Shown piece by piece: positions 15,401 through 28,469 of a stretch of DNA of 61,886 nucleotides. Numbering within the stretch: position 1 is the first letter of the stretch; each line of letters starts with the position of its first letter. A program made the translations under genes and the position numbers. The stretch is from a virus. Lineage: Duplodnaviria > Caudoviricetes. Under the pieces are notes generated by a model, which was not told the DNA's origin, searched no databases, and was given only the letters and a program-made list of their open reading frames with translations. The DNA lies in IMG/VR virus record IMGVR_UViG_3300025879_000023, positions 1-61,886 of that record, one strand, 5' to 3'.

Positions 15401-16056
15401 ATACTATATTTTCTTTCTTACAAAGCGCTTTATTTGCTGGTGTTTTTGGAGATGATGAAGATGAAAATTTAAAACTAGATGATAAAACTTTAAGAGCTGC
15501 TAATACTGTACTCGATAGTGCATTAAGAGGATCCGGTATTGGTGGAGCAGCATTAGCTACATTAAAAAATGCAATTATTGCATGGGCAAAAGAAAATGAT
15601 AAAGGTTGGAAAGCTGATAATTCAAAAGTAATTATTGAATTACTAAATATTTCTCCAGCTGTTGGTATTAAGGCTAGAAAAATTAACACAGCAATGAATG
15701 CTTATAAATATGGCAACAAGGTAGTTGATGATGTTAGCTTTGCTAATCCAAATCACCCTTATTACGGTATTGCTGGAAGTTTAACTTCAGCAGCATTTAA
15801 CATACCATTAGATCGAGTTGTTACAAAAGCGCAAAACCTGCAAGCTTTAACAAATCAGGAAGCAGAAGCATGGCAACGTACAGCTCTATTTTTAGGTTAT
15901 AACACTTGGGATGTTGGATTAAAAGATCCTGAAATTGAAGCAGCTAAAAAATCTGCTAAAAAAAGTAAATCATCAAGCAGAACATCGGGCAGAACATCCG
16001 GTAGAACATCCGGTAGAACATCCGGTAGAACATCAGGAAGAAGCTCAAATAGATAA
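9418..16056 (+). CDS. Giant multidomain internal virion (ejected) protein with zincin, sigma-region-2-like and PD-(D/E)XK-like domains
   Basis: 2212 aa and last of the cargo genes. HEVLH at about 11278, sigma-like segment about 11860-12120, E..D..ELK nuclease motif about 13160-13380, helical C-terminal domain and a basic RTSG tail. Confidence 0.7.
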   Translation: MNELEQIVQRMIDAGESEENIALVIKEYNSKTLQPSENVGKPESQGLGAPVAENAAPEIQLTDTVSPSAGGSLELPTTKAYSIDGKKVTKEEFDNYTKEQEKKKEIAKMSFIDKLKVDLAKGSVSLGEMFASVPETIYDIASLPQNLLAKIPGLEKLKTSSKDFKETINVENPILEYYSQEKEELEKVQNIYNNANYDTQGIYENFKKGNYSDGFKQLASGITESAPVSISMMVGGATTSIGKLSAGGTVVFAGPEIATQREEKPEQSEFANVIKGLGLAAAETVYSSIGTGTIGKVYKDILLREGKEEGVKVFRKGLVDMYSTALKKFGAPAAMLGEGVEEVATTITQNMINEKNPFENVADSFIQGVGGGGIYGAPINTAQAISGVKDGITNIKINKELKNSSFNNIVDAFKPGAKSEEATINVSKIKNVTSVFDKKVNLEVENGNITESEAYDTKLNFRKTQQAVNRLKPLEFSSTFETEAVDLLKEKENLSNEIKEINDPSLTVVQKTKLETINNRLEELVIEDSKTKTKVKGEEDIAKAKKIAEALPEELNLTIEDFETTAELQEALQKEGKTEGEAKKLSDSFGFIVQKPNGGPQKIYINKEVAFNSGVATTAQHEVLHAVLRKAIPGNIELGKNLKDFVEEIAGDKFMNTEFAQRFEAYELEYDNTLNSLNTELDSGAISQEKYETESQKALSNLWEETMPLLSESITNGDIDVKSSIWEKLKDFLNRVFNTSNIKNVKFDSGKDVFNFVKDYNKIYKTGKGIKTLSKIAKGDIEGKLVTNQESKIDEVIKSSVGDLASSRVQQIYDEQGVAGAMDIVDEYKGMAAKIAAVYRDRPGFETYKEDLIDGILNDPTYGVLGLTLKYKPEENKGVPLAAYINKYLRPRSITLANQLLGKDEASTFKSDITEVKDVMATETAEDAITASEEIAKEKPVKKKPKLRESIRLDSELNEKLNNALQKAIALNIKKFDQAKGQNQTISPFVADVKIDLAELLEKDVVKLIKSQGVENFLIENREALLDNLTTTFLSKHPFFRKGILKRVKGEWVAPTKVSTYKYDWINEKTGDKLKIDRDNAAGRGLTSGPEFIKRNPKIKEILKENEFVDYHFQDGALRNKIKTNPVNSIARQISSEYGLEVLQDDLLTEGPLTKAISERADLYGIVVAKASAEKAAKDIDRGLIKFSMSTARVADSVVKGYLKSTDGINSKEYKDYIISLGKDGSYIDDLIQNNLWITELLQNEKAANKGLKYEKVIERLLNSTIKESVKDFKVKILKDPKQGGFSSKGKGDLSIAFKDVIANIELKLNSEAQSGSFTIKNIGEQKPIEVTNKKTSYLKEMQDAVDSKEFKDGIANFLKNAKAELKRQGFDPKEYDTSKFPVDLPKSVMESIEKTGLSFNIDLENLNEIIDFYSNKGVNYIQIGDKGLFSIGKDVLGLGIMAPSLRGKGQIRVRMLSSNKGKDIRSQRFRAFYNFTEVNTQDGGLTLDKPDDIKLMLESGIDNIKFSKSMEATPEVENSMNTTFNKIIERKKGVLATETISKATAKLAGQKEGRFKLFVPPTADDLLGLVYNFLGTGKQGDADMQFFNEKLFRPLARANFQLNAERQAIKQRWQEVVKSNKGITKVLRKESDYKFYTNDHAVRAWMWDKLGYDIPGISETDKAALIESVNSSEKLLKFGEELIDVPNKKESWLKPEDDWTASTVEMDLQEILSKIGRARIFEEFITNSDIIFSEGNLNKIEAAYGPKLRGALEDMLYRIEKGRARNEGGNKMAAAYLDWVRGSVATTMFFNTRSALLQQLSIVNFTNWEDNNIFAQGKFIAGSPKTYAKYWTDIFNSDWMKERRQGLKTDINESELVAKLEGSKNKNKALLAYILEKGFSLTKYGDNIAIATGGAPFLYNREQKYIKEGMTPAEAKKEAFLDFQELAESTQQSSRQDLLSNQQVSVIGRIFLAFQNTTMQMTRLQKKAALDLINKRGSFKANISRLVYYGAIQNTIFSFLQSALFAGVFGDDEDENLKLDDKTLRAANTVLDSALRGSGIGGAALATLKNAIIAWAKENDKGWKADNSKVIIELLNISPAVGIKARKINTAMNAYKYGNKVVDDVSFANPNHPYYGIAGSLTSAAFNIPLDRVVTKAQNLQALTNQEAEAWQRTALFLGYNTWDVGLKDPEIEAAKKSAKKSKSSSRTSGRTSGRTSGRTSGRTSGRSSNR
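15979..16041 (+). repeat. 12-bp tandem repeat (AGAACATCCGGT) x5 encoding (RTSG)5
   Basis: Read directly from the sequence. Confidence 0.95.
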
Positions 16057-17157: not shown

Positions 17158-18927
17158 CTATCCATCACAAGATAAGCAATCTGGATCCATAGCTTTAGAA
17201 GCAATATCTCCTCTTAACACAGATTCTGTTCTGGTATAGTATAATGTTTTTACTCCTTTCTTCCATGCTTCAAAATGAACTTGATTAATCCATTTTGGTG
17301 TAGCAATACTTGGGAAGGCAAGATTTAAACTAACCGACTGGTCTATATATTGTTGTCTTATACCAGCTTGATTAACTAATTCTAACTGGTTTATTTCTTT
17401 AAACGTTTTAAATACATCTTTAACAGAATCATACCCGTTTAGCAGGTCTTGCTCAGACGCATCAGGTAAATATACTAGTTTTTTATTTATATACCCCCAA
17501 TCATCTAAAGTATTTATATCTTGAATACTTCCGCCGTCTTCGAGTATTTTGTTCCAGGTTTCATCTGTATCAATACCAGCTTTCTTTAAAACTTTAATAA
17601 GTTCTTTATTTTTGCGAATAAACGTACCTTTTGCAGATTGCTCCGTAAAAACATTAGCGGCCCAAGGCTCAATACCTGGACTAACATTCCCAGATAGTTT
17701 ACTATTTGATACAGTAGGTGCAATAGCCCTAAGATGAGTATTCCTAAATCCAGTGTCACGACACCAAAGAGGTTCTCCGTATACCTCGGCGAGTGCACGC
17801 GACGCCCTTTCGCTTTCAATTTTAATCTGGCTAAATATTCTCCTAGTCTCAAACTGAGCTTGTAATCCTTCGAAAGGTATTCCGTTTTGCTGGAGGTAAG
17901 TGTGCCACCCAAGGACTCCAAGACCAAGCGCTCTTCCTTTTTCTGCAGAACGAACTGAGTTTTCAAATCCTTTAAGGCCTTTAGCCTTTTGTAAAAACTC
18001 TTCAAGTACTCCATCAAGGAACCAAATCGCGTCATAAATAAGATTAGTATCTTTCCATTCTTCATATTTAGTAAGATTTAAAGATGATAAACAGCACACA
18101 AAGCTATGATTTTCATCAGTATGCAATGCTATTTCACTGCATATGTTAGTCATGTGTACTTTTAAACCGTTTTTCTTATACGCTTCGGGGTTGCTCTTGT
18201 TTGTATTTCCTTTAAACAAGATGTAAGGTTCTCCAGTAGCTTTTCTTTTTTGCAAGAGCTTACTCCATTTTCTTCTAGCTGTTGAATCTCCTTCTTCAAG
18301 CTTTCGCATAAATTTATCACCAATAACCGCGCACTGGTGTAAATTAAGGGATTGTCTATTAACATCACCTTTTGGTTCTCTAATTTCAAGCCATTCTTCG
18401 AAATCATCGTGATCAATGTTAATATTAACACTAGCTGCTCCGCGTCTAACTGATCCTTGATTAGTTGCAAGAATTGTGGAGTCATATATTTTACAAAAGG
18501 GTACGACCCCATCTGATGTGCCATTTCCTGTTATTTTAGCTCCGGCAGGACGAATCATATTAATTCCGATACCAACTCCCCCACCGTGTTTAGCTAGCAA
18601 CATCATTTCTAAATTCTTAGCGCCAATCTCTTGTATGCTATCCCCAACATCAATGCCAAAGCATGATATAGGCAAACCTCTGTCTGTACCCGTGTTAGAT
18701 AGCACTGGAGAAGCTAAATTCAACCAGCCCTTCCATATGTACTGAAAGAACTTATCTGCCAATTCTGGCTTATATAACCGCTTTGCAACAGTATTTGCTA
18801 CTCGCATATAAGCGTCTTTTGGCGTTTCGCCAACCATTAAGTATCCTCCAGATATTGTTTTTTTATACACCTCTGTATTACCCCAAGTAGGATAATCAAC
18901 CCCTTTTACCCAATCATTATTCCACAT
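17158..18927 (-). CDS. nrdA: Ribonucleotide reductase class I alpha subunit (no ATP cone)
   Basis: Motifs ASPVLSN, PISCF, GGGVG, TNICSEI, AIAPTVSNS, IDQSVS, TLYY and C-terminal CLSCDG. ATG at 18927. Confidence 0.95.
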   Translation of the reverse strand: MWNNDWVKGVDYPTWGNTEVYKKTISGGYLMVGETPKDAYMRVANTVAKRLYKPELADKFFQYIWKGWLNLASPVLSNTGTDRGLPISCFGIDVGDSIQEIGAKNLEMMLLAKHGGGVGIGINMIRPAGAKITGNGTSDGVVPFCKIYDSTILATNQGSVRRGAASVNINIDHDDFEEWLEIREPKGDVNRQSLNLHQCAVIGDKFMRKLEEGDSTARRKWSKLLQKRKATGEPYILFKGNTNKSNPEAYKKNGLKVHMTNICSEIALHTDENHSFVCCLSSLNLTKYEEWKDTNLIYDAIWFLDGVLEEFLQKAKGLKGFENSVRSAEKGRALGLGVLGWHTYLQQNGIPFEGLQAQFETRRIFSQIKIESERASRALAEVYGEPLWCRDTGFRNTHLRAIAPTVSNSKLSGNVSPGIEPWAANVFTEQSAKGTFIRKNKELIKVLKKAGIDTDETWNKILEDGGSIQDINTLDDWGYINKKLVYLPDASEQDLLNGYDSVKDVFKTFKEINQLELVNQAGIRQQYIDQSVSLNLAFPSIATPKWINQVHFEAWKKGVKTLYYTRTESVLRGDIASKAMDPDCLSCDG

Positions 18928-19144
18928 CTCCAAGATCTAATTTAGTTTCTTTTTCTTCTTTAACTTTTTCTTTCAATTGCTCTATAGCTTCGTCATATCC
19001 AGGCATCAATTTAACAGCCTCTAACGTACCAACAGATAAATCTTTAAGATATGTATTCTCGCTTAGTAATTGTTGCACTACATTGATTAATGCTTGTACT
19101 TTTTTTTCTAATAAATCTTGTCTACTTTGTTTTTGTCCTTTCAT
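18917..19144 (-). CDS. Hypothetical coiled-coil protein
   Basis: 75 aa ORF tightly packed between nrdB and nrdA. Confidence 0.7.
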   Translation of the reverse strand: MKGQKQSRQDLLEKKVQALINVVQQLLSENTYLKDLSVGTLEAVKLMPGYDEAIEQLKEKVKEEKETKLDLGDVE

Positions 19145-19159
19145 ATTATTTAATTTAAT

Positions 19160-20128
19160 TTACCATATATCTTCAAAATCTTCTCCTTCACCCGCTTTGC
19201 TATAGTCTGTTGGACGAGTAGCAAAAAAATCAGTGTGAGTAACACCACCTGTAAGGTGATAGAACCAGTCGAGGTTTTTTGATCCTTTTTCGTCAAATGC
19301 AAAGTAGGACCCAAGGTCGACGTATCCAAGTTCAACGAGTTTTTCGTTAAGTCTTTTTCTAATGAATTGTTTGAGATCGTAAGCTTTAATTCCTTCAACG
19401 TCTCCTGCTTCAAACATTTTGTCAATATAATTTTCTTCAGCGTTTAGCATTGATTCTGCTGCTGCAACAACATCTTCTCTGCAGTTGTTTAATAATTCTT
19501 TATCTTCTTCACACATGTGCCTAAAAAGCTGGCAGCCCATTCTACTATGCAACGACTCATCTCTTACGCTCCATTTCATTTGCTGGCCTATACCTTTAAG
19601 AAGATTTCTAAGTTGAAAACTATATAATACAGCAAAAGCAGAGTAAAGAGAAACGCCCTCAGCAAAAGCAGAAAATATAGCCAAAGACTTAGCAATACCG
19701 CGAGTATCATTGCCTTCATAAGAAACGAGTGCGTTAAACCTGTCCATAGTAGCTTCATCTTGTAAAAAAGCTTTAAAATCTTCCAGTCCAAGTGTTTCAT
19801 TTAAATAAGAATAAGCAACGGCATGAATTGTTTCTTGCGAACCAAACATCATGGCCATTTGTTGTATTTCATGTTTAGGGAACCAACTAACTACTTTTTG
19901 TGTCCAGTAGTCAGATACAGCGCATTCAGTTTGCGCAAAGCCTAGCAATATGTTACCTACTAAACTTTTTTCTTCTGGCGTTAATTTTTCATTCCAATCT
20001 TTCACGTCTCCTGACATACTAATTTCAGTGTGCAGCCAAAATGCTTGCGCTTGTTTTAGCCAACCTTCTGTAAAGTAGATTGGGTATTCAAAAGGCTTGT
20101 ACTCAATTCTCGGTGTAAATAATCCCAT
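19160..20128 (-). CDS. nrdB: Ribonucleotide reductase class I beta subunit
   Basis: Motifs YKPFEYP, FW...EI....D, ETIHAVAY, EGVSLYSAF, RDESLH and TDFFA.R.TDY. Confidence 0.95.
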   Translation of the reverse strand: MGLFTPRIEYKPFEYPIYFTEGWLKQAQAFWLHTEISMSGDVKDWNEKLTPEEKSLVGNILLGFAQTECAVSDYWTQKVVSWFPKHEIQQMAMMFGSQETIHAVAYSYLNETLGLEDFKAFLQDEATMDRFNALVSYEGNDTRGIAKSLAIFSAFAEGVSLYSAFAVLYSFQLRNLLKGIGQQMKWSVRDESLHSRMGCQLFRHMCEEDKELLNNCREDVVAAAESMLNAEENYIDKMFEAGDVEGIKAYDLKQFIRKRLNEKLVELGYVDLGSYFAFDEKGSKNLDWFYHLTGGVTHTDFFATRPTDYSKAGEGEDFEDIW

Positions 20129-20289
20129 TAGTCGTTTGTTATATTTTTAATTGTTCTTAATGTTGACTCCCACGAGTCTAGATATAAAAGGAGGTCTTTT
20201 TTAGTAACCCCCTTATTTTTTATTGCTTTCATTTCCTCAAGCATGTCATCTACCCACCATTCAATAGCGGATGCTTTATCGTTATTCAT
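20128..20289 (-). CDS. Hypothetical protein (MNNDKASAIEWWVDDMLEEM...)
   Basis: 53 aa, hand-translated; stop overlaps the nrdB start. Confidence 0.6.
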   Translation of the reverse strand: MNNDKASAIEWWVDDMLEEMKAIKNKGVTKKDLLLYLDSWESTLRTIKNITND

Positions 20290-20422
20290 CTTTAAAGATC
20301 TCTAAACATATATCTATAAATGGCAAATATAAAACATGTAACGATGAATCCGGCTGTGGATATGTTCTAATTCCTAATAATATGCCAGGATACAATCCAA
20401 TAGTTAATTCCCAATTTCCCAT
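20282..20422 (-). CDS. Hypothetical protein (MGNWELTIGLYPGILLGIRTY...)
   Basis: 46 aa, hand-translated; translationally coupled to its neighbours. Confidence 0.6.
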   Translation of the reverse strand: MGNWELTIGLYPGILLGIRTYPQPDSSLHVLYLPFIDICLEIFKDE

Positions 20423-20592
20423 TATTCTATTTTTATTTTATATTTATCTTGCATTTCAACAAGCTCTTTCCATTTAATTTTACCTTTTATTTCCCAACTC
20501 CATTTAATCCATTTATCAATCTGGCGCTGAGAATATTTTTGCCTAGCTAGCTTCTTCGCTTTTCCAGGATCAATTGTACTGTTCTGTCGCAT
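20422..20592 (-). CDS. Hypothetical basic Trp-rich protein (MRQNSTIDPGKAKKLARQKYSQRQIDKWIKWSW...)
   Basis: 56 aa, hand-translated; stop overlaps the next ATG. Confidence 0.5.
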   Translation of the reverse strand: MRQNSTIDPGKAKKLARQKYSQRQIDKWIKWSWEIKGKIKWKELVEMQDKYKIKIE

Positions 20593-20999
20593 TCAGTTTG
20601 ATTTTGTGGTTTGTATAAAGTAATGTTAGGAAATTGTTCTGATACTAATTTTTTAAACAGCTTCCATCGCATTGGAAATGATTCGTTGGCTCTACCTTTT
20701 GTTTCTATTATAAAATCGTCGCCTATAAAGTCTGGAGTATATTTAATTGGCAATATTCTTTTGCTTCCTCTATTTGCATAATCTCCTTTACCATTTGATT
20801 GTCTTTCATAAACTTCGTTTTCAAAATGAAAACCATTTAATAATACAAATGTTTCTCCTTCATATTTAGATCGTATCTTAGCTTTTTTTAAAGCCATATA
20901 CATATACTTCTCAAGTCCTGAAGCAAAGTCAATACCATCAAATGATACTTTCTTTGCTCTCACAGGTCCTTTTTTCCTACTTCTTTTCTTTATTGCCAT
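20547..20999 (-). CDS. T7 endonuclease I-like Holliday junction resolvase
   Basis: FASGLE...YE...KYTPDF..IIETKG PD-(D/E)XK signature. Confidence 0.8.
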   Translation of the reverse strand: MAIKKRSRKKGPVRAKKVSFDGIDFASGLEKYMYMALKKAKIRSKYEGETFVLLNGFHFENEVYERQSNGKGDYANRGSKRILPIKYTPDFIGDDFIIETKGRANESFPMRWKLFKKLVSEQFPNITLYKPQNQTECDRTVQLILEKRRS

Positions 21000-21277
21000 A
21001 TGTCATCATTATCAAGCATATGCCCATCGTGTGATGCTTCATATTTTTCTACAAGTTTATCTTGTAAAACCTCAGTAGTAACACGCTTAAGCTTTTCAAT
21101 ATAATTAACAGCATCCATAAGTTCTTCCTGTAAATGTGTCATCCAAACATTAAGATCGCTTGGATCTTGATCGAGCGTAACGCCATACTTTTTAAAGCCG
21201 ACATTAGATCGTTCAACAAATTTATCTACAACGCTTTCTATAACAGGATCACGAAATGTAATTTCTTTCTTATTCAT
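20990..21277 (-). CDS. Small all-alpha NTP-pyrophosphatase-like protein
   Basis: G.KKYG.TL...W..HLQEELMDAVNY motif. Confidence 0.55.
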   Translation of the reverse strand: MNKKEITFRDPVIESVVDKFVERSNVGFKKYGVTLDQDPSDLNVWMTHLQEELMDAVNYIEKLKRVTTEVLQDKLVEKYEASHDGHMLDNDDIWQ

Positions 21278-21278
21278 A

Positions 21279-22040
21279 TTAAGATTCTTTTACAAATGTT
21301 CCGTTAATCATTTTACCTTTTCTGTTTTGAATTACATTGTAAGCCGATTGCACACAATCTTCAATTTTAAGGTCTTCAAGTTTAGCTAAGTTTGTAAGAA
21401 CAACTACGCAATCACCAATAGCGTCAATAATTTCAGGTTTGTCTTTTTCAAGTATAGCTTTAGCTAATTCGCCAACTTCTTCTAAAAGCTTTATATATTG
21501 CGTTTTGCTATCGCCCTTAGTATATATTCCTTTTGCAGCAGCCCATAGACGTATATCGTCATATACAGTATGTACACTTTCTGTAAAATTTTCAGTAAAT
21601 GCTTCATAAAATGCTTTATTATATATAAAAGAACGTTGTTTGTCATACATTGAAATTACAGAATTATGTTCAATCCATCTAATTGATTCAGTTGTTAATT
21701 CAAATTCGCCAAGAGATGTTTCCCATTTCATTCCAATGTTTTCCATTAGGTTACCCTTTAATTTGTCTTTAGGGAAAGGAAAAGTTGTAGTTTGCTCGGT
21801 TACATTAATTTTCATTTGATTTGATTTTTTATTTATTAAGTCTTTATACAATTGTCTGTCTACTTTATACCCATATGCCTTTTGCAAAGCTATTTCTCTT
21901 TTAGATATATAGTGTATATCGTCGGAAGATTCGACAACTTCATACTCATTAGAATTGTAGCCTTGAGCCTGAGTAACCCTTAATTCAAGATTACGTGTAA
22001 CTCCAATTTTTTTACCAGGTATATGATATATATGATACAT
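21279..22040 (-). CDS. MazG-like nucleotide pyrophosphohydrolase with N-terminal GIY-YIG-like domain
   Basis: C-terminal KLLEEVGELAKAI...DAIGDCVVVL...RKGKMINGTFVK; N-terminal YHIYHIPGKKIGVTRNLELR. Confidence 0.8.
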   Translation of the reverse strand: MYHIYHIPGKKIGVTRNLELRVTQAQGYNSNEYEVVESSDDIHYISKREIALQKAYGYKVDRQLYKDLINKKSNQMKINVTEQTTTFPFPKDKLKGNLMENIGMKWETSLGEFELTTESIRWIEHNSVISMYDKQRSFIYNKAFYEAFTENFTESVHTVYDDIRLWAAAKGIYTKGDSKTQYIKLLEEVGELAKAILEKDKPEIIDAIGDCVVVLTNLAKLEDLKIEDCVQSAYNVIQNRKGKMINGTFVKES

Positions 22041-22052
22041 AACAATTTGTTT

Positions 22053-22868
22053 TTACCCTACCGATAACGGTGCTAAGATTGCGGGATGTGATTTATAATT
22101 ATTTAAAGATACGGAATTATGCACAGGCATAAAAATAGCATCGTTGTCAAGATACAAACCGTGTTCAACACTAATTGTTGGTAACTCATACATATATCTT
22201 TCTAATTGTTCAGAAGCTTGCTTTATATGATTACTATATAAATGACAATCACCTAGTTGTCCAATTAACGATCCTGCTTTTAAACCATTACCTTTAGCTA
22301 AGAACTCTAATAACAACCCATACATTGCAATATCATAAGGTAAACCTAAAAATATATCTACAGAACGTTGTTGCCACATTAAATCTATAACGCCATCATT
22401 AATATAAACTTGAAAACCGTAATGACAAGGCGGTAAAGCCATATCCGGCATTTCAATTGGGTTCCACGCGCTCACTATAAGACGTCTTGAATCAGGATTA
22501 GACTTAATATCTGCCAAAAGGTTTTTAAGCTGATCTACGCCGCCGAAATCGCGCCATTGCTTTCCGTATACAGGCCCTAAAGTGTTGTCTGTTCTTCCTG
22601 ATCTTTCATAATCAGCATCCCAGTAGTGCACTTTGTGGTTTTGCAAGTAAGTTATATCTGTTCTACCTTGTAAAATCCATAGAATTTCTGTTAAAGCAGC
22701 ATTGAACCAAACTTTCTTTGTAGTAAGTAAAGGAAAGCCATTACTCATATCGTGTCTTATTGTTCTACCAAACACGCTTAACGTGCCCGTGCCAGTACGA
22801 TCACTTTTCTTTTTGCCTTGATATAAGACTTCTGACATTAATTTGTGGTACTCTTCTTGTATATTCAT
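22053..22868 (-). CDS. thyA: Thymidylate synthase-family enzyme with Asn-to-Asp specificity change (possible dCMP methylase)
   Basis: Motifs DRTGTGT, FPLLTTKK, LGPVYG.QWR, DSRR, MALPPCH, QRSVD and HLYSNH are present, but LGLPYDIAMY replaces LGLPFNIASY. Confidence 0.9.
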   Translation of the reverse strand: MNIQEEYHKLMSEVLYQGKKKSDRTGTGTLSVFGRTIRHDMSNGFPLLTTKKVWFNAALTEILWILQGRTDITYLQNHKVHYWDADYERSGRTDNTLGPVYGKQWRDFGGVDQLKNLLADIKSNPDSRRLIVSAWNPIEMPDMALPPCHYGFQVYINDGVIDLMWQQRSVDIFLGLPYDIAMYGLLLEFLAKGNGLKAGSLIGQLGDCHLYSNHIKQASEQLERYMYELPTISVEHGLYLDNDAIFMPVHNSVSLNNYKSHPAILAPLSVG

Positions 22869-23149
22869 TATTTATTGTGTTTGTTGTAATAATATAAACA
22901 TGCTTTATAATACTCTTGCCATATATTGTCTTTTGTATATACACTAGGTGACAAATGAAAGGCTTTATAGTTTTCCCCTATACTTATGGCTATTTTCCAT
23001 TTATCAGGGTTTTGAACGTAATCTATTGCTTGAAGACCTATTCTTATGTTGTTTTTCAAACACCATTTGTATGCAGAAGCTTCTTCTTTATTTGCAATAT
23101 AATTATCTGGTAAATTGTTTTTCTTTTTATTTTTTAATCCGCTTCCCAT
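22868..23149 (-). CDS. Hypothetical protein
   Basis: ATG at 23149 overlaps the primase-helicase stop. Confidence 0.65.
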   Translation of the reverse strand: MGSGLKNKKKNNLPDNYIANKEEASAYKWCLKNNIRIGLQAIDYVQNPDKWKIAISIGENYKAFHLSPSVYTKDNIWQEYYKACLYYYNKHNK

Positions 23150-24870
23150 TAAATTTCCCAAGGCATTGCGTCGTTGTCAGCAACAGACTGGTTAGGATCA
23201 CGTATTGGCAAGAAACACCCTGACTTGTGCTCCCATTTGAAATGAGCTTCAGCACCGTTTTCGCCTAAATTTTGAAACTTAACTTTAAGTACTTTGGCTT
23301 TAACAGTTTTGTTTTCATAATCTCTATGAACTAATAACCCGTGGTAAGAAGCATCATACCATTCACCACCGCCTTTAATGTTATACATTGTAGGCTCTTC
23401 AATTTTGCCATTAGCATCCTTATACATTTTAGTTGGGTGTGCTACCACAATAACTAAAACATCATATTTTTTTGCAAATATTTCAATCTTAGTTAGGTAC
23501 TCAAGTGTATAAGCATTAACGTCTCCAGAATTGCCGTCATAATCTCTAACCTTATTAAAAGGATCAATAACTAAACACTTAATTCCTTTGCGCTTAACAA
23601 GCTCAGCACCTTTTCTAAGCACTCCTTCTAAGCTGTATCTATCCATATCAATATGATAGAAGTTTGAATTACAATGATCTGCAACTTGATCCCATTTACC
23701 ACTACCAATATCTTCCTTAGAAGGCATATCGCCCCATACTTTTCTCATTAATTTATGAGCGTGCAAATATGTTGGTGCGTTTTCAGGCGAAGCAAAAGCT
23801 GTTTTCCAGCCATAATTCATATTATACCCAACGACCATCTGATCAACAAAATCAGACTTTCCACTACTAGGTATGCCAGTAACAGTAATAAACTGGCCGG
23901 TATAAGTACTAAAAATATCGTCAAAATTTTTAAGGCCAACTTGGTAACCTGGTTTAAAACCGTTTCTAACAAAATCTGTAATCTCGTCTTCAATGTCTTT
24001 GAAGGTTGTGACTCCTTCGAGGGGAACTGGCTTTGCACCGGTAATACGCTGCGCCAAACTTTCTTTTCCATGTTTTAATAAATATTCGTTTGAATCTTTG
24101 CAGTCATCAAAAGTTGATATAAAACAAACTTCAGCTCCGAGTCTTCTAATAAACTCGCTTTGCAAGGCTTGTCCAGCCTCATCTCCGTCTAAAGCTAGTA
24201 TTACTTTTTCTTTATCAGTAAAGTAATCTATACAGTTATCTAAATAATCTAAATTGTTTGTTCCAAGTGTAGCACCATTTGGTACAGATACAACATTGGG
24301 TATTCCAGCTTCATGCAAACTAAGAGCATCCATTTCGCCTTCTACAATTACGCAATACTCATATCCAACTATTGCATTTATGTTATAGAAAACTTTTTCA
24401 GCGCCTTTATAAAGCTTAAAGTTTTTGCGTCCATCTCTGTATTTTACATTTATAAGGTCATCACCCATAAAGTAATTAAAATGAATAGCATTTTCTTCTT
24501 TTCCGGTTTGAGGCATAAATTCTTTGCCTTCTGTAACTTTAAGAGCTTTTAATGTATCGTTTGAAATTCCTCTACTTTGAAACCACTCTTGAACCTTAGT
24601 ACTTACTTCTTTAGGTTGTATTGGTTCTGGTTTAATGTAGACTTTTTCAGCGTTTCCTTTCCGCTGATATGTATGAAGTTGAAATGTGTTGGAGCAATGA
24701 TGGCAAGTGCCTAAGCCCCTTTCCCAATCATAAGATGCACATTTAGCTTTCTTATTTTCAGGTTTTCTATTTTCGGAACAAATAGGACAAATACCTTCTG
24801 GTTTACCTACTTGTAAATCATACTGGTTGAATTGTTCTATTTGAAATCCGTTTATCTCCGTTGTTTGCAT
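23149..24870 (-). CDS. Primase-helicase (T7 gp4/Twinkle-like)
   Basis: Zn finger CPIC...CHHC, TOPRIM motifs IVEGEMDALS and LDGDEAG, Walker A TGIPSSGKS, LVIDP and VAHP.K. Confidence 0.92.
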   Translation of the reverse strand: MQTTEINGFQIEQFNQYDLQVGKPEGICPICSENRKPENKKAKCASYDWERGLGTCHHCSNTFQLHTYQRKGNAEKVYIKPEPIQPKEVSTKVQEWFQSRGISNDTLKALKVTEGKEFMPQTGKEENAIHFNYFMGDDLINVKYRDGRKNFKLYKGAEKVFYNINAIVGYEYCVIVEGEMDALSLHEAGIPNVVSVPNGATLGTNNLDYLDNCIDYFTDKEKVILALDGDEAGQALQSEFIRRLGAEVCFISTFDDCKDSNEYLLKHGKESLAQRITGAKPVPLEGVTTFKDIEDEITDFVRNGFKPGYQVGLKNFDDIFSTYTGQFITVTGIPSSGKSDFVDQMVVGYNMNYGWKTAFASPENAPTYLHAHKLMRKVWGDMPSKEDIGSGKWDQVADHCNSNFYHIDMDRYSLEGVLRKGAELVKRKGIKCLVIDPFNKVRDYDGNSGDVNAYTLEYLTKIEIFAKKYDVLVIVVAHPTKMYKDANGKIEEPTMYNIKGGGEWYDASYHGLLVHRDYENKTVKAKVLKVKFQNLGENGAEAHFKWEHKSGCFLPIRDPNQSVADNDAMPWEI

Positions 24871-24897
24871 CGGGTAAAAAAGTTAGAAGTTAATTAA

Positions 24898-24931
24898 AAT
24901 AAGGGGAGCTGTTCACATTACTCCCCCTATT
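24898..24931 (-). terminator. Stem-loop (terminator/attenuator) between SSB and primase-helicase
   Basis: Minus strand AATAGGGGGAG-N12-CTCCCCTTATT followed by TTAATT. Confidence 0.6.
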
Positions 24932-24952
24932 GACACACACATTATTACAGAA

Positions 24953-25276
24953 TTAAAATGGCAAATCATCCTGTGGTTGTGCAGCAGGTGGAGCTGCTTG
25001 AAAACCACCTTGTTGTACTTGATTATCTCTTGGTGCTGCATCTACGTTTGTTCCATTAGACCAAACAACTTTTACATTTCCAAGATATACTTTGTCCGCT
25101 TTCGCTTCTCTTTCTTCTTTTGACTGTTCAACAATTACAGGCCCTTGGTTTCCATAATTGTCTACTGCGTCATTGAGTGTAATTGTAATAGGTAAATACT
25201 TTCCTTTTTTACCTTCAATAATTTTGTCTTTTGGTATCGCGTTTAAGTTGATACTAGTTTTAATAATTGATGCCAT
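24953..25276 (-). CDS. Single-stranded DNA-binding protein (Bacteroidetes phage type)
   Basis: GKKGKYL..YG....QSKEERE...YLGN core and acidic DDLPF C-terminus. Confidence 0.75.
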   Translation of the reverse strand: MASIIKTSINLNAIPKDKIIEGKKGKYLPITITLNDAVDNYGNQGPVIVEQSKEEREAKADKVYLGNVKVVWSNGTNVDAAPRDNQVQQGGFQAAPPAAQPQDDLPF

Positions 25277-25294
25277 AGTTTTAGTTTTAATTAA

Positions 25295-26035
25295 TTAAAG
25301 TGTTTTTGATATAAAATAATTCTTAGGATCGAAACTTTGATCCTTATAGTACAATCTGTACTGCTCAGCGGCTTCCTCAACTTTAAACTTACCACGCTCA
25401 AGGAACTGAGGGGAACAGTCAAAGATACCAATTTTTTTTGTTTTTTTATCTATAACCAAGAAAATAAAATCCATATTAAAATAACTTGAATATATAAATG
25501 CTTGACTATCATAGTTATAGTTTCTTGCGCTTTGCTCAAAACGTGTTATGTCTCCAGATGTTTTAAGATCAACAATAATACCTTGTGTATTGTTTTTAAT
25601 ATCTGTTTTACATTTCCACCATTCACCCGCTAATTCTATAAGGCCTGGAATTTCGTACTCAACATCTATGTCGCGAATTAAGCCATTTGCCGTTTCATTA
25701 GCCATAAGGGTTTCATTCAAGGCCTGTAGCATATCAGCTTCATGCTGCAATAAACATATCTCTGGGTTTGTCAGAGCTTTGTACTCATTATTGTTACGTG
25801 TTTTTGCATCAATAATTTTGTACCTATTCAGTTTTTCCGGTTCCAACACTAATGTGTGGAAGTAAGCTCCTTTTACCAAGTTCGGATTAGCGGGCTGTGG
25901 TTGGTGTAACATAAGAGGATCAGTTAAAAGAGTTCCTATGTTAGAATTAGATAAAAACTGTTTTCCGAAATCACCGTAATACAGCTCATCATCTTCTAGC
26001 TTTTTTAGTATGTCATTTAACTGAGCCTTTTTCAT
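25295..26035 (-). CDS. RecE/exonuclease VIII-like PD-(D/E)XK exonuclease
   Basis: Motifs LSNS, G..FH...LEP, KCKTD, VDLKT and Y.YDSQA..Y. Confidence 0.85.
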   Translation of the reverse strand: MKKAQLNDILKKLEDDELYYGDFGKQFLSNSNIGTLLTDPLMLHQPQPANPNLVKGAYFHTLVLEPEKLNRYKIIDAKTRNNNEYKALTNPEICLLQHEADMLQALNETLMANETANGLIRDIDVEYEIPGLIELAGEWWKCKTDIKNNTQGIIVDLKTSGDITRFEQSARNYNYDSQAFIYSSYFNMDFIFLVIDKKTKKIGIFDCSPQFLERGKFKVEEAAEQYRLYYKDQSFDPKNYFISKTL

Positions 26036-26559
26036 TATAGTGTTTTTAAAAGTTGAGGATCTACTTCGTATTTCTTTTTAATATCTTCTATAGTTCCTTT
26101 ACCAGATTTAATAAATTCTTTTGCTTTTTCTAAAGCTTGCCCTTCTAATTTAGGTTTTGTTACTGCCCTACCATGTTGATTTGTTGCATCCGAATCAGCT
26201 GTATCATCTATTAATAATAAATTCCCAAGCGCGTATTTTTTTCCATAAGAAGAACCGCTGCCATACTGTTGAGGCACTTGCATACCCTTTTGATTTAAAT
26301 CAACACCAACCAAAGCTGTTGCAGATATTTCAGCTGTACCATCAGATATTGTAGCAACTGATTTAAACATTGGAACAGGTTCTGTGGCTATTAACTCTTC
26401 GTCTATTTTAAAATACACACTGTATTTATCATTAAACGGCTTAAGTCCTTCAAGTATATCCTCAGCAGATCTGAAGTTGTACTTACCAAAAGAATTAAAT
26501 CTACTTTTCTTCGATTTAAACTCTACTTGGATTTTACTTAGTTTTTCGTGTAGTTTCAT
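26035..26559 (-). CDS. ERF-family ssDNA annealing protein
   Basis: Motifs N.FGKY.FRSAEDI and Q.YGS.SSY.KKYAL..L..IDD..D.D. Confidence 0.85.
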   Translation of the reverse strand: MKLHEKLSKIQVEFKSKKSRFNSFGKYNFRSAEDILEGLKPFNDKYSVYFKIDEELIATEPVPMFKSVATISDGTAEISATALVGVDLNQKGMQVPQQYGSGSSYGKKYALGNLLLIDDTADSDATNQHGRAVTKPKLEGQALEKAKEFIKSGKGTIEDIKKKYEVDPQLLKTL

Positions 26560-26583
26560 ATTAATTTAATTTAGTTATACATC

Positions 26584-27345
26584 TCAAAGATAATCAATTA
26601 CTTGCGAAGAATCTACATTTTCTATTAATTTTTGCACTGCTTGTTTCTTTATTTCAGAAATTCTCACATACGCACTTGATCCTTCTATATTTAATATTTC
26701 TGCTATTTTATTTGCAGAATGCTTATCACAATTAAGCCCATAGCTTAATCTCAATACTTCAAATTCTCTTTCATCTAAATGCTTTTTTAACAAACTTGTT
26801 AAATATACATTAAGCAAAGCTATATTATAAGGTTCAGACTGATCTGGTATTTGGTGCATCATATTTTCATCATCTTCATTAACTTGTTCATCAATACTTA
26901 AGAATATAGAATTAAAAAACATAGCCACCATTGCTTTATCTTTACCTTCATCTTTTCTAATTTCATTTAGCTTATGCTCTGGTATTCTTATATCACCTCT
27001 ATTAATATCAATAGCTCTTCGTATTGACCCTTTTATTCTTTTTGACAGGAATGACTTTAATGTTTTTTCTGGATCGTCAGATTCAATTACTGTCTCCCAA
27101 ATTATTTTATCTACCGCTCTTATTAGTCCAAGACTTCCATCTTGAATAAGATCTGTAATATCCATAACACCTGATGCTTGATCAGAAGTTGAAAACTTCC
27201 TAGCAATATTCTCTACCAATGGCAGGAAAGTAACAATTAGTTCGTCTCGTGTGTAATCTTGAAATGCTTTAAACTCAATTAAATTAATTGACGCTTTAAC
27301 ATCATCTTTATACCTCACATAATTGCGAATGTTGTACTTTTTCAT
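26584..27345 (-). CDS. RNA polymerase sigma-70 family factor
   Basis: Region 2 LPLVENIARKF...DLIQDGSLGLIRAVDK, IRIPEH, and region 4 LDEREFEVLRLSYGL...IAEIL...RI.EIK.QA..KL. Confidence 0.9.
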   Translation of the reverse strand: MKKYNIRNYVRYKDDVKASINLIEFKAFQDYTRDELIVTFLPLVENIARKFSTSDQASGVMDITDLIQDGSLGLIRAVDKIIWETVIESDDPEKTLKSFLSKRIKGSIRRAIDINRGDIRIPEHKLNEIRKDEGKDKAMVAMFFNSIFLSIDEQVNEDDENMMHQIPDQSEPYNIALLNVYLTSLLKKHLDEREFEVLRLSYGLNCDKHSANKIAEILNIEGSSAYVRISEIKKQAVQKLIENVDSSQVIDYL

Positions 27346-27961
27346 TTTGTTGATTTAATAGTTCTTTCTCATCTTTAAGTTCATTGGTTATATTTCGGTG
27401 TATGGTTCTAGTTGTGCAGTTTAATAGCTTAGCTATTTTTGTTATTGTTATTTTTTCGCCATTATCATTTATATAAAGCATCATGTCATATATGTCTGCT
27501 TCTGTTACTCTTTTTGTTTTACCTATCATTTGGCCCACAATGCTGAGCTTTTCTGATAATGATAATTTACACTGATATTTAAATATTATTTTACGTGTTT
27601 TATTTTTAGGCGGTTGTTCTAAATCTTTCATGCTAACATCGTAAACAATTTTGCTTACTGAATCATCTGGCGGTTCAAATGTTATAAATCCATTTTTTTT
27701 ATTACAAATATACTCTGCTAAATTATTAAAAGCTTTTTGATCAAGCTGAGGATTTAAATACCATAAAACTAATAAGTGCCACTTTAAAGATCTATAACTT
27801 GTTATTTTAGCTTTGCTTCTAAACAGATCGTAACACTCATGAGTACCATCTTCATAAAAGTAACCCCATTCAAAACATGCTGTTGGCTTGTCTGATATAG
27901 GTAACCTCCTATAAATTATCCGTCTTTGATTTAAATAATCAAGCAATCTTTCGTGCGACAT
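27308..27961 (-). CDS. DNA-binding protein with C-terminal HTH and possible PriCT-like domain (Rep-like)
   Basis: KITITKIAKLLNCTTRTIHRNI forms an HTH; CN..NGF....PPDDSVSKIV.DV resembles a primase C-terminal domain. Confidence 0.6.
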   Translation of the reverse strand: MSHERLLDYLNQRRIIYRRLPISDKPTACFEWGYFYEDGTHECYDLFRSKAKITSYRSLKWHLLVLWYLNPQLDQKAFNNLAEYICNKKNGFITFEPPDDSVSKIVYDVSMKDLEQPPKNKTRKIIFKYQCKLSLSEKLSIVGQMIGKTKRVTEADIYDMMLYINDNGEKITITKIAKLLNCTTRTIHRNITNELKDEKELLNQQNEKVQHSQLCEV

Positions 27962-27998
27962 TAGCCTATTACTATTTATATTAACTACCTATTGTCAC
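27955..27998. repeat. 44-bp inverted-repeat site, copy A (core inverted relative to B and C)
   Basis: GCGACATTAGCCT-ATTACTATTTATATTAAC-TACCTATTGTCAC; overlaps the ATG of the HTH gene. Confidence 0.85.
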
Positions 27999-28036
27999 TG
28001 TTTTTTTGTGAAAGTAGTAATTTTTTTTTAAAGTTG

Positions 28037-28378: not shown

Positions 28379-28419
28379 AATTTATTCTTTTCAATTAAAC
28401 TAAATTGTTTGATTTATAT

Positions 28420-28469
28420 GTAAACATATTGGTTTACTTTTATACATATATGTAAACACATTAGTTTAC
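28420..28469. promoter_or_regulatory. Tandem palindromic operators GTAAAC-N6-GTTTAC x2
   Basis: Copies at 28420-28437 and 28452-28469, 32-bp period, essentially intergenic. Confidence 0.6.

What the first reader, a model, noticed from the sequence alone, without database searches (positions are those of the whole stretch)
20990..22868. ThyA with the Asn-to-Asp switch next to two NTP pyrophosphatases: candidate 5-methylcytosine genome-substitution pathway
Seen: the ThyA reads QRSVDIFLGLPYDIAMY (GAT codon, + strand atc at 22332-22334) where thymidylate synthases have PFNIASY. The other ThyA motifs (DRTGTGT, RR, PPCH, HLY.NH, hydrophobic C-terminus) are intact. Known: this Asn (E. coli N177, L. 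casei N229) selects dUMP, the Asp mutants methylate dCMP, and T4 dCMP hydroxymethylase has Asp there naturally. Seen: it is directly followed by a MazG-like enzyme and a second all-alpha NTP-PPase-like protein. Inference: these could act like a dCTPase, supplying dCMP and removing dCTP, so the phage would build DNA with 5mC (or 5hmC) at the nucleotide level as an anti-restriction strategy. No dedicated kinase or polymerase is visible, so host enzymes would have to finish the pathway.
Basis: partly seen in the sequence, partly recalled or inferred. Interest (0 to 1): 0.9.

Follow-up and report, generated by a model that had tools for sequence, protein, structure and literature searches.

The report
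Phage cytosine-methylating thymidylate synthase cassette
An uncultured marine phage carries a thymidylate-synthase look-alike whose base-reading residue is switched to the cytosine form, next to a nucleotide pyrophosphatase, so it probably builds 5-methylcytosine into its DNA, a known anti-restriction trick seen here in a pared-down form.

Summary
The core observation holds. The 271-aa ThyA homologue (22053-22868, minus strand) has Asp (GAT, 22332-22334) where thymidylate synthases have Asn177, and every other catalytic residue is kept. The Asp is fixed in 120/120, 80/80 and 56/56 relatives, whereas 77/77 cellular ThyAs fetched alongside have Asn. A MazG-domain protein follows directly. The third gene is a conserved two-helix protein with no detectable link to NTP pyrophosphatases, so "two pyrophosphatases" is not supported. 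Published signature residues (Leu143, Asp169, Asp177) predict a 5-methyl-dCMP synthase, not a hydroxymethylase or hydroxylase. This kind of system is known (Xp12, PaMx74, MetaGPA viromes), and this scan has already met this marine phage family on other DNA. Three results are added here. First, 21 near-complete genomes lack a DNA polymerase B and any C5 or N4/N6 DNA methyltransferase, and the 20 relatives also lack a deaminase. Second, in sister genomes the same slot before MazG holds a short T4-gp42-like Asp enzyme (27 of 56 loci), which argues for DNA cytosine modification rather than thymidylate supply. Third, 11 TS-bearing genomes show almost no palindrome avoidance, while two TS-less structural relatives show extreme avoidance. 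No direct chemistry was available. Verdict: new member of a known kind, moderate interest.

The parts
22053..22868 (-). ThyA-like thymidylate synthase homologue with Asp at the E. coli Asn177 position. Predicted deoxycytidylate C5-methyltransferase (5-methyl-dCMP synthase).
   Evidence: PF00303, E 3.6e-89. 46% identical to E. coli ThyA. Signature L143, C146, H147, D169, Y176, D177. It is the only TS homologue in the genome.
22332..22334 (-). GAT codon for Asp179, the residue equivalent to E. coli Asn177.
   Evidence: Coordinates computed. The Asp is present in 120/120, 80/80 and 56/56 relatives.
21279..22040 (-). Three-domain protein of 253 aa. The N-terminal alpha/beta domain (about residues 1-60) may be T5orf172/GIY-YIG-like. 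The middle domain (about 80-150) is unknown. The C-terminal domain (about 157-253) is a MazG all-alpha NTP pyrophosphohydrolase and the candidate dCTPase.
   Evidence: Pfam MazG 4.5e-8 and PRA-PH 1.4e-4. PHROG 'MazG-like pyrophosphatase' 6.8e-34. AF2 pLDDT 86.5. Fold matches to S-2L MazZ 7ody, 1vmg, human DCTPP1 7mu5 and RS21-C6 2oig. E187, E188, E191, D206 and D210 are invariant in 30/30 sequences. The T5orf172 lead is from the Atlas only. Its start lies 12 nt after the TS stop.
20990..21277 (-). Conserved 95-aa two-helix protein of unknown function. It is not demonstrably an NTP pyrophosphatase.
   Evidence: Found in 75 of 80 ThyA-selected loci. Invariant D10, R23, G27, K30, Y31, D38, W45, H48, Q50-E52, D55 and Y59. 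No family, PDB or fold hit.
22868..23161 (-). Conserved 97-aa protein of unknown function immediately upstream of the TS slot. It is present with both long and short TS types.
   Evidence: tblastn hits in 51 of 80 loci. Homologous small ORFs precede the short TS genes in sister genomes. No Pfam, PHROG or NCBIfam hit.
20547..20999 (-). DUF1064 nuclease-like protein, a conserved downstream neighbour (context).
   Evidence: PF06356, 3.5e-8. PHROG 'Holliday junction resolvase' 2.2e-11. Present in 77 of 80 loci.
17158..20128 (-). Class I ribonucleotide reductase, large (17158-18933) and small (19160-20128) subunits. This is the dNDP supply at the end of the same gene string.
   Evidence: phrog_84, 8.6e-154. 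PF00268, 1.7e-56.
23149..24870 (-). Toprim/DnaB-type primase-helicase upstream of the cassette. It is the only replisome enzyme found.
   Evidence: Pfam Toprim_2 9.6e-15 and DnaB_C. No PolA in the window and no PolB in 21 genomes.

Best explanation
The gene at 22053-22868 encodes a thymidylate-synthase-fold enzyme retuned from dUMP to dCMP. With methylene-tetrahydrofolate it makes 5-methyl-dCMP (inferred from residues). The MazG domain of the next gene hydrolyses dCTP to dCMP, which both feeds the methylase and empties the pool of unmodified dCTP (inferred by analogy with T4 gp56 and the PRA-PH genes of Xp12-type phages). Host nucleotide kinases and the host replisome then turn 5-methyl-dCMP into 5-methyl-dCTP and build it into phage DNA (inferred, because the phage has no kinase or polymerase of its own). 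Cytosine is thereby largely or wholly replaced by 5-methylcytosine, which blunts restriction. What is shown: the fold; the Asp switch and its strict conservation; retention of all catalytic residues and of Leu143 and Asp169; the MazG domain; the conserved gene order; the absence of deaminase, second TS, DNA methyltransferases, polymerase and kinase families; the alternation of TS types in one slot; and the weak palindrome avoidance. What is not shown: substrate, product, MazG specificity and virion DNA composition.
For: (1) Asp replaces Asn177 while E58, W80, Y94, C146, H147, R166, S167, D169, H207 and Y209 are kept.
(2) Passages read in three papers bear on this. N177D/N229D mutants switch TS to dCMP methylation, and Asp177 marks TS genes of cytosine-modified virome contigs that co-occur with PRA-PH pyrophosphohydrolases (PMC8670742). 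Five of seven natural Asp-type TSs, and the Xp12 enzyme, gave 5mdC in E. coli when co-expressed with T4 dNMP kinase (bioRxiv 10.1101/2024.12.05.627091). Leu143 correlates with methyl products and Asp/Glu143 with hydroxymethyl products, and D169N marks 5-hydroxy-dCMP synthases (PMC13326640). The window has L143 and D169.
(3) The Asp is fixed in 120/120, 80/80 and 56/56 relatives, against Asn in 77/77 cellular relatives.
(4) It is the sole TS in the window and in 20 of 20 near-complete relatives. There is no ThyX in the window.
(5) The cassette is conserved: MazG follows in 79 of 80 loci and the 95-aa gene is present in 75 of 80.
(6) In 56 of 56 loci chosen by the primase-helicase gene, the slot before MazG holds an Asp-type PF00303 protein. 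There are 26 long forms like the window, 3 divergent long forms and 27 short gp42-like forms with Asp143. A hydroxymethyl product cannot yield thymidylate, so the shared role is more likely cytosine modification of DNA.
(7) None of 21 genomes has a C5 or N4/N6 DNA methyltransferase.
(8) In 11 TS-bearing genomes, none of the 12 C/G-containing 4-bp palindromes falls below O/E 0.3, and only 1-3 of 39-54 testable 6-bp palindromes are strongly depleted. Two TS-less structural relatives have 5 and 2 such tetramers (CATG 1 against 145 expected; GATC 0 against 202) and 13 of 36 and 10 of 49 such hexamers.
(9) PaMx74, which the preprint states carries 5mC in place of C, has the same adjacency of pyrophosphohydrolase and Asp-TS.
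Against: There is no chemical or enzymatic evidence.
No dNMP kinase was found. The published in-vivo assays added T4 dNMP kinase, and Xp12 is recalled (not checked here) to induce its own 5-methyl-dCMP kinase. The host may therefore not phosphorylate 5-methyl-dCMP well.
There is no phage polymerase, so the host replisome would have to accept the analogue and host DNA would be labelled too.
Two of the seven Asp-type TSs tested in the preprint did not give 5mdC.
MazG specificity cannot be read from sequence. A relative, Cellulophaga phage phi10:1, has a MazG gene without any annotated TS in the region read, so MazG is not tied to cytosine modification in this wider group.
The C-terminus is 1-2 residues longer than in canonical ThyA across the family, with unknown effect on hydride transfer.
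Some hexamers are still avoided: GATATC and ATGCAT each occur 0 times against about 17 expected in the window. Protection, if any, is not complete.
The palindrome contrast rests on only two TS-less genomes from other hosts and habitats, and the 11 TS-bearing genomes are kin.
Confidence: 0.65

Rival explanations
1. The cassette is a detour to thymidylate. dCTP goes to dCMP (MazG), then to 5-methyl-dCMP (TS-Asp), which a host dCMP or dCTP deaminase converts to dTMP or dTTP. This would feed an AT-rich (34% GC) genome without leaving modified cytosine in DNA.
For: The genome is 34% GC. The phage has no canonical TS and no kinase for 5-methyl-dCMP. The preprint argues that Xp12-type phages make dTTP by deaminating 5-methyl-dCTP. 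Earlier scan notes propose 'methylate first, deaminate second' for some bacteria (not checked here).
Against: No PF00383 deaminase is present in the window or in 20 of 20 near-complete relatives. With a host dCMP deaminase, an ordinary Asn-type TS would do the same job. The same slot in 27 of 56 sister loci holds a gp42-like enzyme with Asp143, whose predicted hydroxymethyl product cannot become thymidylate. Relaxed palindrome avoidance is not explained by this reading.
Confidence: 0.12
2. It is an ordinary dTMP synthase after all. The Asp is tolerated in this lineage, and the gene simply boosts thymidylate supply beside the phage ribonucleotide reductase.
For: It is 46% identical to E. coli ThyA with all other active-site residues kept. 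It passes the NCBIfam 'thymidylate synthase' equivalog TIGR03284 (292 bits against a cut-off of 108). It sits in a string with RNR genes.
Against: All 77 cellular relatives fetched have Asn. Asp is invariant over 59-99% identity within the phage family. Mutagenesis cited in the papers read shows that Asn-to-Asp switches preference to dCMP. Natural Asp forms made 5mdC in 5 of 7 tests. It scores below the stricter equivalog cut-offs NF002497 and NF002496.
Confidence: 0.08
3. The enzyme acts on dCMP, but the final base is not plain 5mC. It could be a different C5 group, or 5mC further processed by the conserved unknown partners: the 97-aa and 95-aa proteins and the two N-terminal domains of the MazG protein.
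For: Two of seven Asp-type TSs did not give 5mdC in the published screen. Three conserved proteins or domains of unknown function flank the TS in both the long-TS and short-TS genomes. The C-terminus is extended by 1-2 residues relative to ThyA.
Against: Leu143 and Asp169 match methyl-forming enzymes. No glycosyltransferase of families PF00535 or PF00534 occurs in 31 genomes. No family for a further modifying enzyme was found.
Confidence: 0.1

Closest known systems
Deoxycytidylate C5-methyltransferase (5-methyl-dCMP synthase) modules of Xanthomonas phage Xp12 and Pseudomonas phage PaMx74 (Pamexvirus)
   Same: Both have a TS-fold enzyme with Asp at position 177 and Tyr at 176 (the GLPYD motif also occurs in PaMx74). 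Both keep Leu143, Cys146 and Asp169. Both sit directly beside an all-alpha NTP pyrophosphohydrolase gene.
   Different: PaMx74 adds a dCMP-deaminase-family gene, DHFR and its own DNA polymerase. The window has none of these. The PaMx74 enzyme is only 32% identical to E. coli ThyA, has Pro at 147 and lacks the ThyA C-terminal tail. The window enzyme is 46% identical, keeps His147 and keeps the tail. In a FastTree tree the window clade sits among Asn-type ThyAs, away from PaMx74, which suggests an independent Asn-to-Asp switch (quick tree only). The pyrophosphatases also differ: PRA-PH in PaMx74 against a three-domain MazG fusion here. The Xp12 sequence itself was not fetched.
Asp177 thymidylate-synthase homologues of cytosine-modified virome contigs (MetaGPA; eLife 2021, PMC8670742; bioRxiv 10.1101/2024.12.05.627091)
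   Same: The same diagnostic residue and the same co-occurrence with a pyrophosphohydrolase. The predicted product is 5mdCMP, and several natural examples were validated in vivo.
   Different: Those studies centre on TS genes linked to deaminases or carbamoyltransferases, and this family has neither. Whether contigs of this family are in their data sets could not be checked, because the supplements were closed.
T4 gp42 dCMP hydroxymethylase with gp56 dCTPase
   Same: The logic is the same: a TS-fold enzyme with Asp177 acts on dCMP, and an all-alpha NTP pyrophosphatase removes dCTP. Sister genomes of this family carry a short gp42-like enzyme in the very same slot.
   Different: The window enzyme has Leu, not Asp, at 143 and keeps the C-terminal tail. 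gp56 belongs to dUTPase_2 rather than MazG, and hhalign probability against the MazG family is 3. T4 also has its own dNMP kinase, polymerase and glucosyltransferases (the kinase is known from the papers read).
Engineered E. coli ThyA N177D and L. casei TS N229D
   Same: Both are canonical ThyA scaffolds with the single specificity switch to dCMP methylation (cited).
   Different: The window protein is a natural, conserved form. It also carries F176Y and a slightly longer C-terminus.

Membership tests
Thymidylate synthase superfamily (PF00303) | Profile match over the whole fold, above the curated cut-off | tested here: met
   298.9 bits against a cut-off of 24.3, covering residues 6-270.
Thymidylate synthase superfamily (PF00303) | Catalytic Cys146 and phosphate-binding Arg166/Ser167, Arg126/127 | tested here: met
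   These columns are invariant in alignments A1 and A4.
dTMP synthase ThyA (EC 2.1.1.45) | Asn at position 177, which selects dUMP | tested here: not met
   Asp179 (GAT, 22332-22334) occupies this position.
dTMP synthase ThyA (EC 2.1.1.45) | Methylates dUMP and complements a thyA mutant | not testable with these tools
   This needs an enzyme assay or a genetic test.
Deoxycytidylate C5-methyltransferase (Xp12/PaMx74 type) | Asp at 177 with a hydrophobic residue at 143 and Asp at 169 | tested here: met
   L143, D169 and D177 in the window and in 80 of 80 family loci. The rule comes from PMC13326640.
Deoxycytidylate C5-methyltransferase (Xp12/PaMx74 type) | Produces 5-methyl-dCMP, with 5mC replacing C in virion DNA | not testable with these tools
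   No isolate and no raw reads were available. All 24 sequencing runs found are kept as contigs.
Deoxycytidylate C5-methyltransferase (Xp12/PaMx74 type) | Common descent with the Xp12/PaMx74 enzyme | tested here: inconclusive
   In the FastTree tree the window clade (18 rows, all Asp, support 99) is separate from PaMx74. PaMx74 lies on a long branch, and no careful ML or AU test was run. Xp12 was not fetched.
Xp12-type 5mC module | Linked dCMP/dCTP-deaminase-family gene that makes dTTP from 5-methyl-dCTP | tested here: not met
   PF00383 is absent from the window and from 20 of 20 relatives.
T4-type dCMP hydroxymethylase | Asp or Glu at position 143 and no ThyA C-terminal tail | tested here: not met
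   The window has Leu143 and the tail. In contrast, 27 sister loci do meet this feature.
5-hydroxy-dCMP synthase (RB69/DLP3 type) | Asn at position 169 | tested here: not met
   Asp169 is present.
MazG / all-alpha NTP pyrophosphohydrolase (gene 21279-22040) | Profile match above the cut-off, four-helix fold and acidic metal-binding motif | tested here: met
   PF03819 at 33.7 bits against 22. Foldseek probability 1.00 to 7ody, 1vmg and 7mu5. E187, E188, E191, D206 and D210 are invariant.
MazG / all-alpha NTP pyrophosphohydrolase (gene 21279-22040) | dCTP-specific hydrolysis (dCTPase role) | not testable with these tools
   Specificity cannot be read from the sequence.
NTP pyrophosphohydrolase (gene 20990-21277) | Any sequence, profile or fold similarity to MazG, PRA-PH or dUTPase_2 | tested here: not met
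   Searches were all negative.

The most novel reading that the evidence does not exclude
A widespread family of about 60-kb marine Flavobacteriia phages may replace cytosine genome-wide with a minimal kit of one TS homologue and one MazG fusion. It would rely on the host's own kinases and replisome to handle the modified nucleotide. Across the family the synthase in a fixed slot alternates between a 5mC type and a T4-gp42-like 5hmC type, as in an arms race with modification-blocked and modification-dependent restriction. The always-linked unknowns (the 97-aa and 95-aa proteins and the two N-terminal domains of the MazG protein) would then be new pathway parts, for example a non-P-loop nucleotide kinase or a factor that biases the host replisome or nucleotide pool.
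Probability: 0.3. Interest if true: 0.65.

Novelty: new member of a known kind. Interest (0 to 1): 0.4.

Why it matters
If the prediction holds, an abundant group of uncultured marine phages of Flavobacteriia carries fully or largely 5-methylated cytosine. Standard annotation hides this, because the gene passes an NCBIfam 'thymidylate synthase' equivalog. That would matter for how virome DNA behaves in methylation-sensitive library preparation and in nanopore base-calling. It would also bear on phage-host restriction ecology in the sea, and the family could be a source of compact dCMP-modifying enzymes. The pared-down gene set, with no kinase, deaminase or polymerase, asks whether a host replisome and host kinases can sustain whole-genome base replacement. 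The long/short synthase swap offers a natural experiment on how modification type evolves.

Tried and rejected
Second pyrophosphatase. The 95-aa protein was tested with Pfam, PHROGs, NCBIfam, PDB sequence search (single sequence and profile), an AF2 model with Foldseek against PDB, hhalign against the MazG family, and the ESM Atlas. Nothing links it to NTP pyrophosphatases, so that reading is rejected.

Direct evidence from reads. The look-up of sequencing runs listed 24 runs in 15 studies, all kept as Logan contigs. Two marine runs hold 0.87-0.91 of the sampled words and may be the source. Contigs cannot show base modification, so read laying was not used and these runs are no evidence of anything.

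Cultured representative. By tblastn no phage record has this TS above 47.3% identity (4267 records). blastn found only a 65%-identical core stretch. The nearest structural relatives (Elemovirus at 45% and MW202828.1 at 64% TerL identity) have no PF00303 gene. Cellulophaga phage phi10:1 (42% primase-helicase identity) has DNA methyltransferases and a MazG but no TS in the region read.

Glycosyltransferases PF00535 and PF00534 are absent from 31 of 31 genomes, long and short types alike, so no T4-like sugar step was found. Other transferase families were not searched.

Kinase hunt. The only Walker-A matches in ORFs of 50 aa or more are in the helicase, a tail-fibre-like ORF, the 2212-aa protein and the endolysin-like ORF. 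Thymidylate_kin and dNK are absent. No Pfam model of T4 gp1-type dNMP kinase was searched by name, so a divergent kinase cannot be excluded.

MazG comparisons. MazG against PaMx74 gp53 gave BLASTP E 0.031. MazG family against T4 gp56 gave hhalign probability 3. Neither shows specific kinship.

Counting and tree caveats. The regex count missed 4 of 150 representatives; the alignment-based count replaces it (139 Asn, 10 Asp, 1 Ser). The regex for position 143 hit the wrong Cys in the 3 divergent long forms; alignment A4 shows Leu143 for L202. The tree is FastTree only, with T4 and PaMx74 on long branches, and no AU test was run. The statement 'at least 9 Asn/Asp changes, 5 forced by starred branches' is therefore indicative only.

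Literature. The paper searches (0 papers; 68 papers, 15 listed by title and abstract start) found nothing on this phage family. That is the whole basis for saying I saw none in print. Supplements of the eLife paper and of the preprint were closed; they may list contigs or enzymes of this family. Papers were read as search listings and found passages only, not in full.


Full report
What the window is. The window is a whole IMG/VR virus record of 61,886 bp, 96% complete by CheckV, with 34% GC and no tRNA genes. Its minus-strand block from 17158 to about 32000 holds, in order of transcription:
- small early genes, then a GP88-family protein, a DnaA-C HTH protein, an HTH protein and a sigma-like factor;
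- Erf, an exonuclease and a 107-aa protein;
- a Toprim/DnaB primase-helicase and a 97-aa protein;
- the ThyA homologue, a MazG-domain protein and a 95-aa protein;
- a DUF1064 nuclease-like protein, two small ORFs, and the small and large subunits of ribonucleotide reductase.

The plus-strand blocks hold virion and tail proteins, GroEL/GroES-like chaperonins, an endolysin, the large terminase and the portal.

Likely host. TerL and primase-helicase relatives among cultured phages all infect Flavobacteriia: Flavobacterium, Cellulophaga, Tenacibaculum, Maribacter and Riemerella. A 94%-identical TS gene lies on a 6-kb contig binned with a Flavobacteriales MAG. The host is therefore probably a marine member of the Flavobacteriales; this is an inference.

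Checking the observation. The ORF at 22053-22868 (-) is a full-length PF00303 protein (E 3.6e-89) and is 46% identical to E. coli ThyA. In alignments to solved thymidylate synthases it reads GLPYDIAMY where they read GVPFNIASY. Mapped onto E. coli numbering, it keeps E58, W80, Y94, A142, L143, C146, H147, Q165, R166, S167, D169, G173, H207 and Y209. In the motif it changes only F176Y and N177D.

The Asp is not a private mutation. It is present in all 120 of the 120 best-scoring database homologues at 65-97% identity. It is present in 80 of 80 IMG/VR loci, which also all have L143, H147, D169 and Y176. It is present in 56 of 56 loci chosen independently through the primase-helicase gene. Of the 80 best GTDB genome hits, three have Asp. 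These are short MAG contigs 63-94% identical to the window gene, and so are members of the phage family. The other 77, cellular ThyAs at 41-48% identity, all have Asn.

The two downstream genes. The next gene begins 12 nt after the TS stop and carries a MazG domain: Pfam MazG at 33.7 bits against a cut-off of 22 and PRA-PH at 22.6 against 21.3, with a PHROG 'MazG-like pyrophosphatase' hit at 6.8e-34. Its AF2 model (pLDDT 86.5) has three domains. The C-terminal four-helix domain matches cyanophage S-2L MazZ, Sulfolobus MazG 1vmg, human DCTPP1 and mouse RS21-C6 with Foldseek probability 0.96-1.00. The acidic residues E187, E188, E191, D206 and D210 are invariant in 30 of 30 family members. The N-terminal 150 residues are not explained; the Atlas points to T5orf172 (GIY-YIG clan), which is a lead only.

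The third gene (95 aa) is conserved (75 of 80 loci) and is predicted to be a two-helix hairpin. Every test for kinship with NTP pyrophosphatases was negative.

What the literature already says. I read passages, not whole papers. The MetaGPA study (PMC8670742) took position 177 as its benchmark. Asn is typical of TS genes on unmodified virome contigs and Asp of those on cytosine-modified contigs, and TS co-occurs with PRA-PH pyrophosphohydrolase and deaminase domains. The study cites the N177D and N229D mutagenesis that turns TS into a dCMP methylase.

A 2024 preprint (10.1101/2024.12.05.627091) expressed natural Asp-type TS genes in E. coli with T4 dNMP kinase. It found 5mdC in plasmid DNA for 5 of 7, and for the Xp12 enzyme. 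It describes Xp12 and PaMx74 as phages with 5mC fully replacing C, and proposes that their linked deaminases make dTTP from 5-methyl-dCTP.

A 2026 NAR paper (PMC13326640) gives the finer signature. Leu143 goes with methyl products, Asp or Glu143 with hydroxymethyl products (T4, MilA), and D169N with 5-hydroxy-dCMP synthases. By these rules the window enzyme (L143, D169, D177) is a predicted 5-methyl-dCMP synthase. PaMx74's own cluster reads pyrophosphohydrolase, thyA (also GLPYD), dCMP deaminase, then DHFR further on, and the phage has its own DNA polymerase.

How this cassette differs. The window has no second TS or ThyX, no PF00383 deaminase, no DHFR, no PolA or PolB, no thymidylate-kinase or dNK family member, and no extra P-loop ORF. 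In 20 near-complete relatives (CheckV 90% or more) there is exactly one TS each (20 of 20) and no deaminase (0 of 20). With the window included (21 genomes) there is no PolB, no C5 methyltransferase and no N4/N6 methyltransferase. The pathway, if real, therefore runs on a minimal phage kit plus host kinases and the host replisome.

Origin of the Asp switch. I built a quick FastTree tree of 169 rows: the window, 15 family members, 150 representatives at 50% identity, E. coli, PaMx74 and T4. The window clade is an all-Asp group of 18 rows (support 99) nested among Asn-type ThyAs. Among the 150 representatives, 139 have Asn, 10 Asp and 1 Ser. The Asn/Asp pattern needs at least 9 changes, 5 of them forced by well-supported branches. 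This suggests repeated, independent Asn-to-Asp switches, but the tree is not a careful one.

New comparative evidence 1: a swappable synthase slot. Loci were fetched through the primase-helicase protein (62 new loci, 68-98% identical). Of these, 56 have at least 2 kb downstream and 6 have too little flank. In all 56, the slot between the 97-aa gene and the MazG gene holds a PF00303 homologue with Asp177, mostly ending 6-98 nt before MazG. The forms are:
- 26 long forms like the window;
- 3 divergent long forms (31-35% identical to the window enzyme, with Leu143 by alignment A4);
- 27 short forms of 214-236 aa.

The short proteins match PF00303 (E about 8e-27). They align with T4 gp42, have Asp at 143 and at 177, and lack the ThyA C-terminal tail, which is the signature of dCMP hydroxymethylases. 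The 97-aa, MazG and 95-aa genes stay in place around either type. A hydroxymethylated product cannot be a route to thymidylate. The function shared by the slot is therefore more plausibly making a modified dCMP for DNA than making dTMP.

New comparative evidence 2: palindromes. I examined 11 TS-bearing genomes: the window, 5 long, 1 divergent long and 4 short. In these, none of the 12 C/G-containing 4-bp palindromes falls below O/E 0.3 (the lowest is GGCC at 0.39). Only 1-3 of 39-54 testable 6-bp palindromes are strongly depleted.

The two structural relatives that lack any TS gene look very different. Elemovirus MT497068.1 has 5 tetramers below 0.3: CATG 1 against 145 expected, CCGG 0 against 13, CGCG 0 against 13, GGCC 1 against 25, and GATC 49 against 181. 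It also has 13 of 36 hexamers depleted. MW202828.1 has GATC 0 against 202, CCGG 0 against 26, and 10 of 49 hexamers depleted.

This fits a family that is shielded from most type II restriction by something other than site avoidance. The caveats are real. There are only two controls, from other hosts and habitats, and the 11 TS-bearing genomes are kin. Some sites are still avoided; in the window GATATC and ATGCAT each occur 0 times against about 17 expected.

Weighing the readings. I put 0.65 on a dCMP methylase feeding 5mC into phage DNA, with MazG as dCTPase. The main doubts are these:
- There is no phage dNMP kinase, whereas the published assays added one.
- The pathway depends on the host polymerase.
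- MazG specificity is unknowable from sequence, and a MazG gene occurs without a TS in Cellulophaga phage phi10:1.
- The C-terminus is extended by 1-2 residues across the family.
- Two of seven natural Asp-type enzymes failed in the published screen.

The rivals are a thymidylate detour through a host deaminase (0.12), an ordinary TS (0.08) and another final modification (0.10).

Novelty. The kind of system is known (Xp12, PaMx74, MetaGPA). This scan has already filed this same marine family, and many other Asp-type TS cassettes, on other DNA. Those notes agree with my reading but are not independent evidence. I therefore file the finding as a new member of a known kind, with moderate interest. 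The interest comes from the minimal gene set, the long/short synthase swap in one slot, the palindrome contrast, and three always-linked proteins or domains of unknown function. My two literature searches found nothing on this phage family. Supplementary files of the key papers were closed and may bear on that.

Noticed in passing
L194:3164-3823, L231:9223-9909 and 25 other loci (L192-L250): Sister genomes of the same phage family carry, in the window's ThyA slot, a short (214-236 aa) T4-gp42-like TS homologue with Asp143 and Asp177 and no C-terminal tail. It is a predicted dCMP hydroxymethylase. No PF00535 or PF00534 glycosyltransferase was found in these genomes.
   Followed up: partly
window 21279-22040, residues 1-150: The MazG protein has two extra N-terminal domains that are conserved across the family (invariant Y5, H6, K11, G13, T15, R21, E32, E49, Y58, T84, F87, Y140, N141). 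The first resembles T5orf172/GIY-YIG by Atlas features only. Their function is unknown.
   Followed up: partly
window, whole genome: The hexamer palindromes GATATC and ATGCAT are entirely absent (0 against about 17 expected each). GATATC is also absent or depleted in five relatives (G016, G020, G021, G026, G028). This hints at a restriction enzyme that the putative modification does not block.
   Followed up: partly
window 49485-51041 and 55067-55672: The phage encodes GroEL-like (phrog_5725, 1.3e-133) and GroES-like (phrog_13932, 1e-20) chaperonins, as do its Elemovirus and MW202828.1 relatives.
   Followed up: no
window 9418-16056: A 2212-aa ORF has no PHROG or Pfam family hit. The relative MW202828.1 has an even larger ORF (741-12320) in the matching structural block.
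   Followed up: no
window 17158-31951 and 20 related genomes: The whole family has a primase-helicase, Erf, an exonuclease and RNR but no PolB (0 of 21 genomes), and the window has no PolA. Replication presumably uses the host polymerase.
   Followed up: partly
L015, L017, L022, L023, L041, L044, L045, L057-L059, L062, L073, L075: In a subset of relatives the 95-aa gene lies upstream of the TS gene instead of downstream of MazG. The trio is therefore rearranged but kept together.
   Followed up: no
window 22053-22868: NCBIfam equivalog TIGR03284 'thymidylate synthase' is passed (292 bits against a cut-off of 108), so routine annotation will name this Asp-type enzyme an ordinary thymidylate synthase.
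   Followed up: yes
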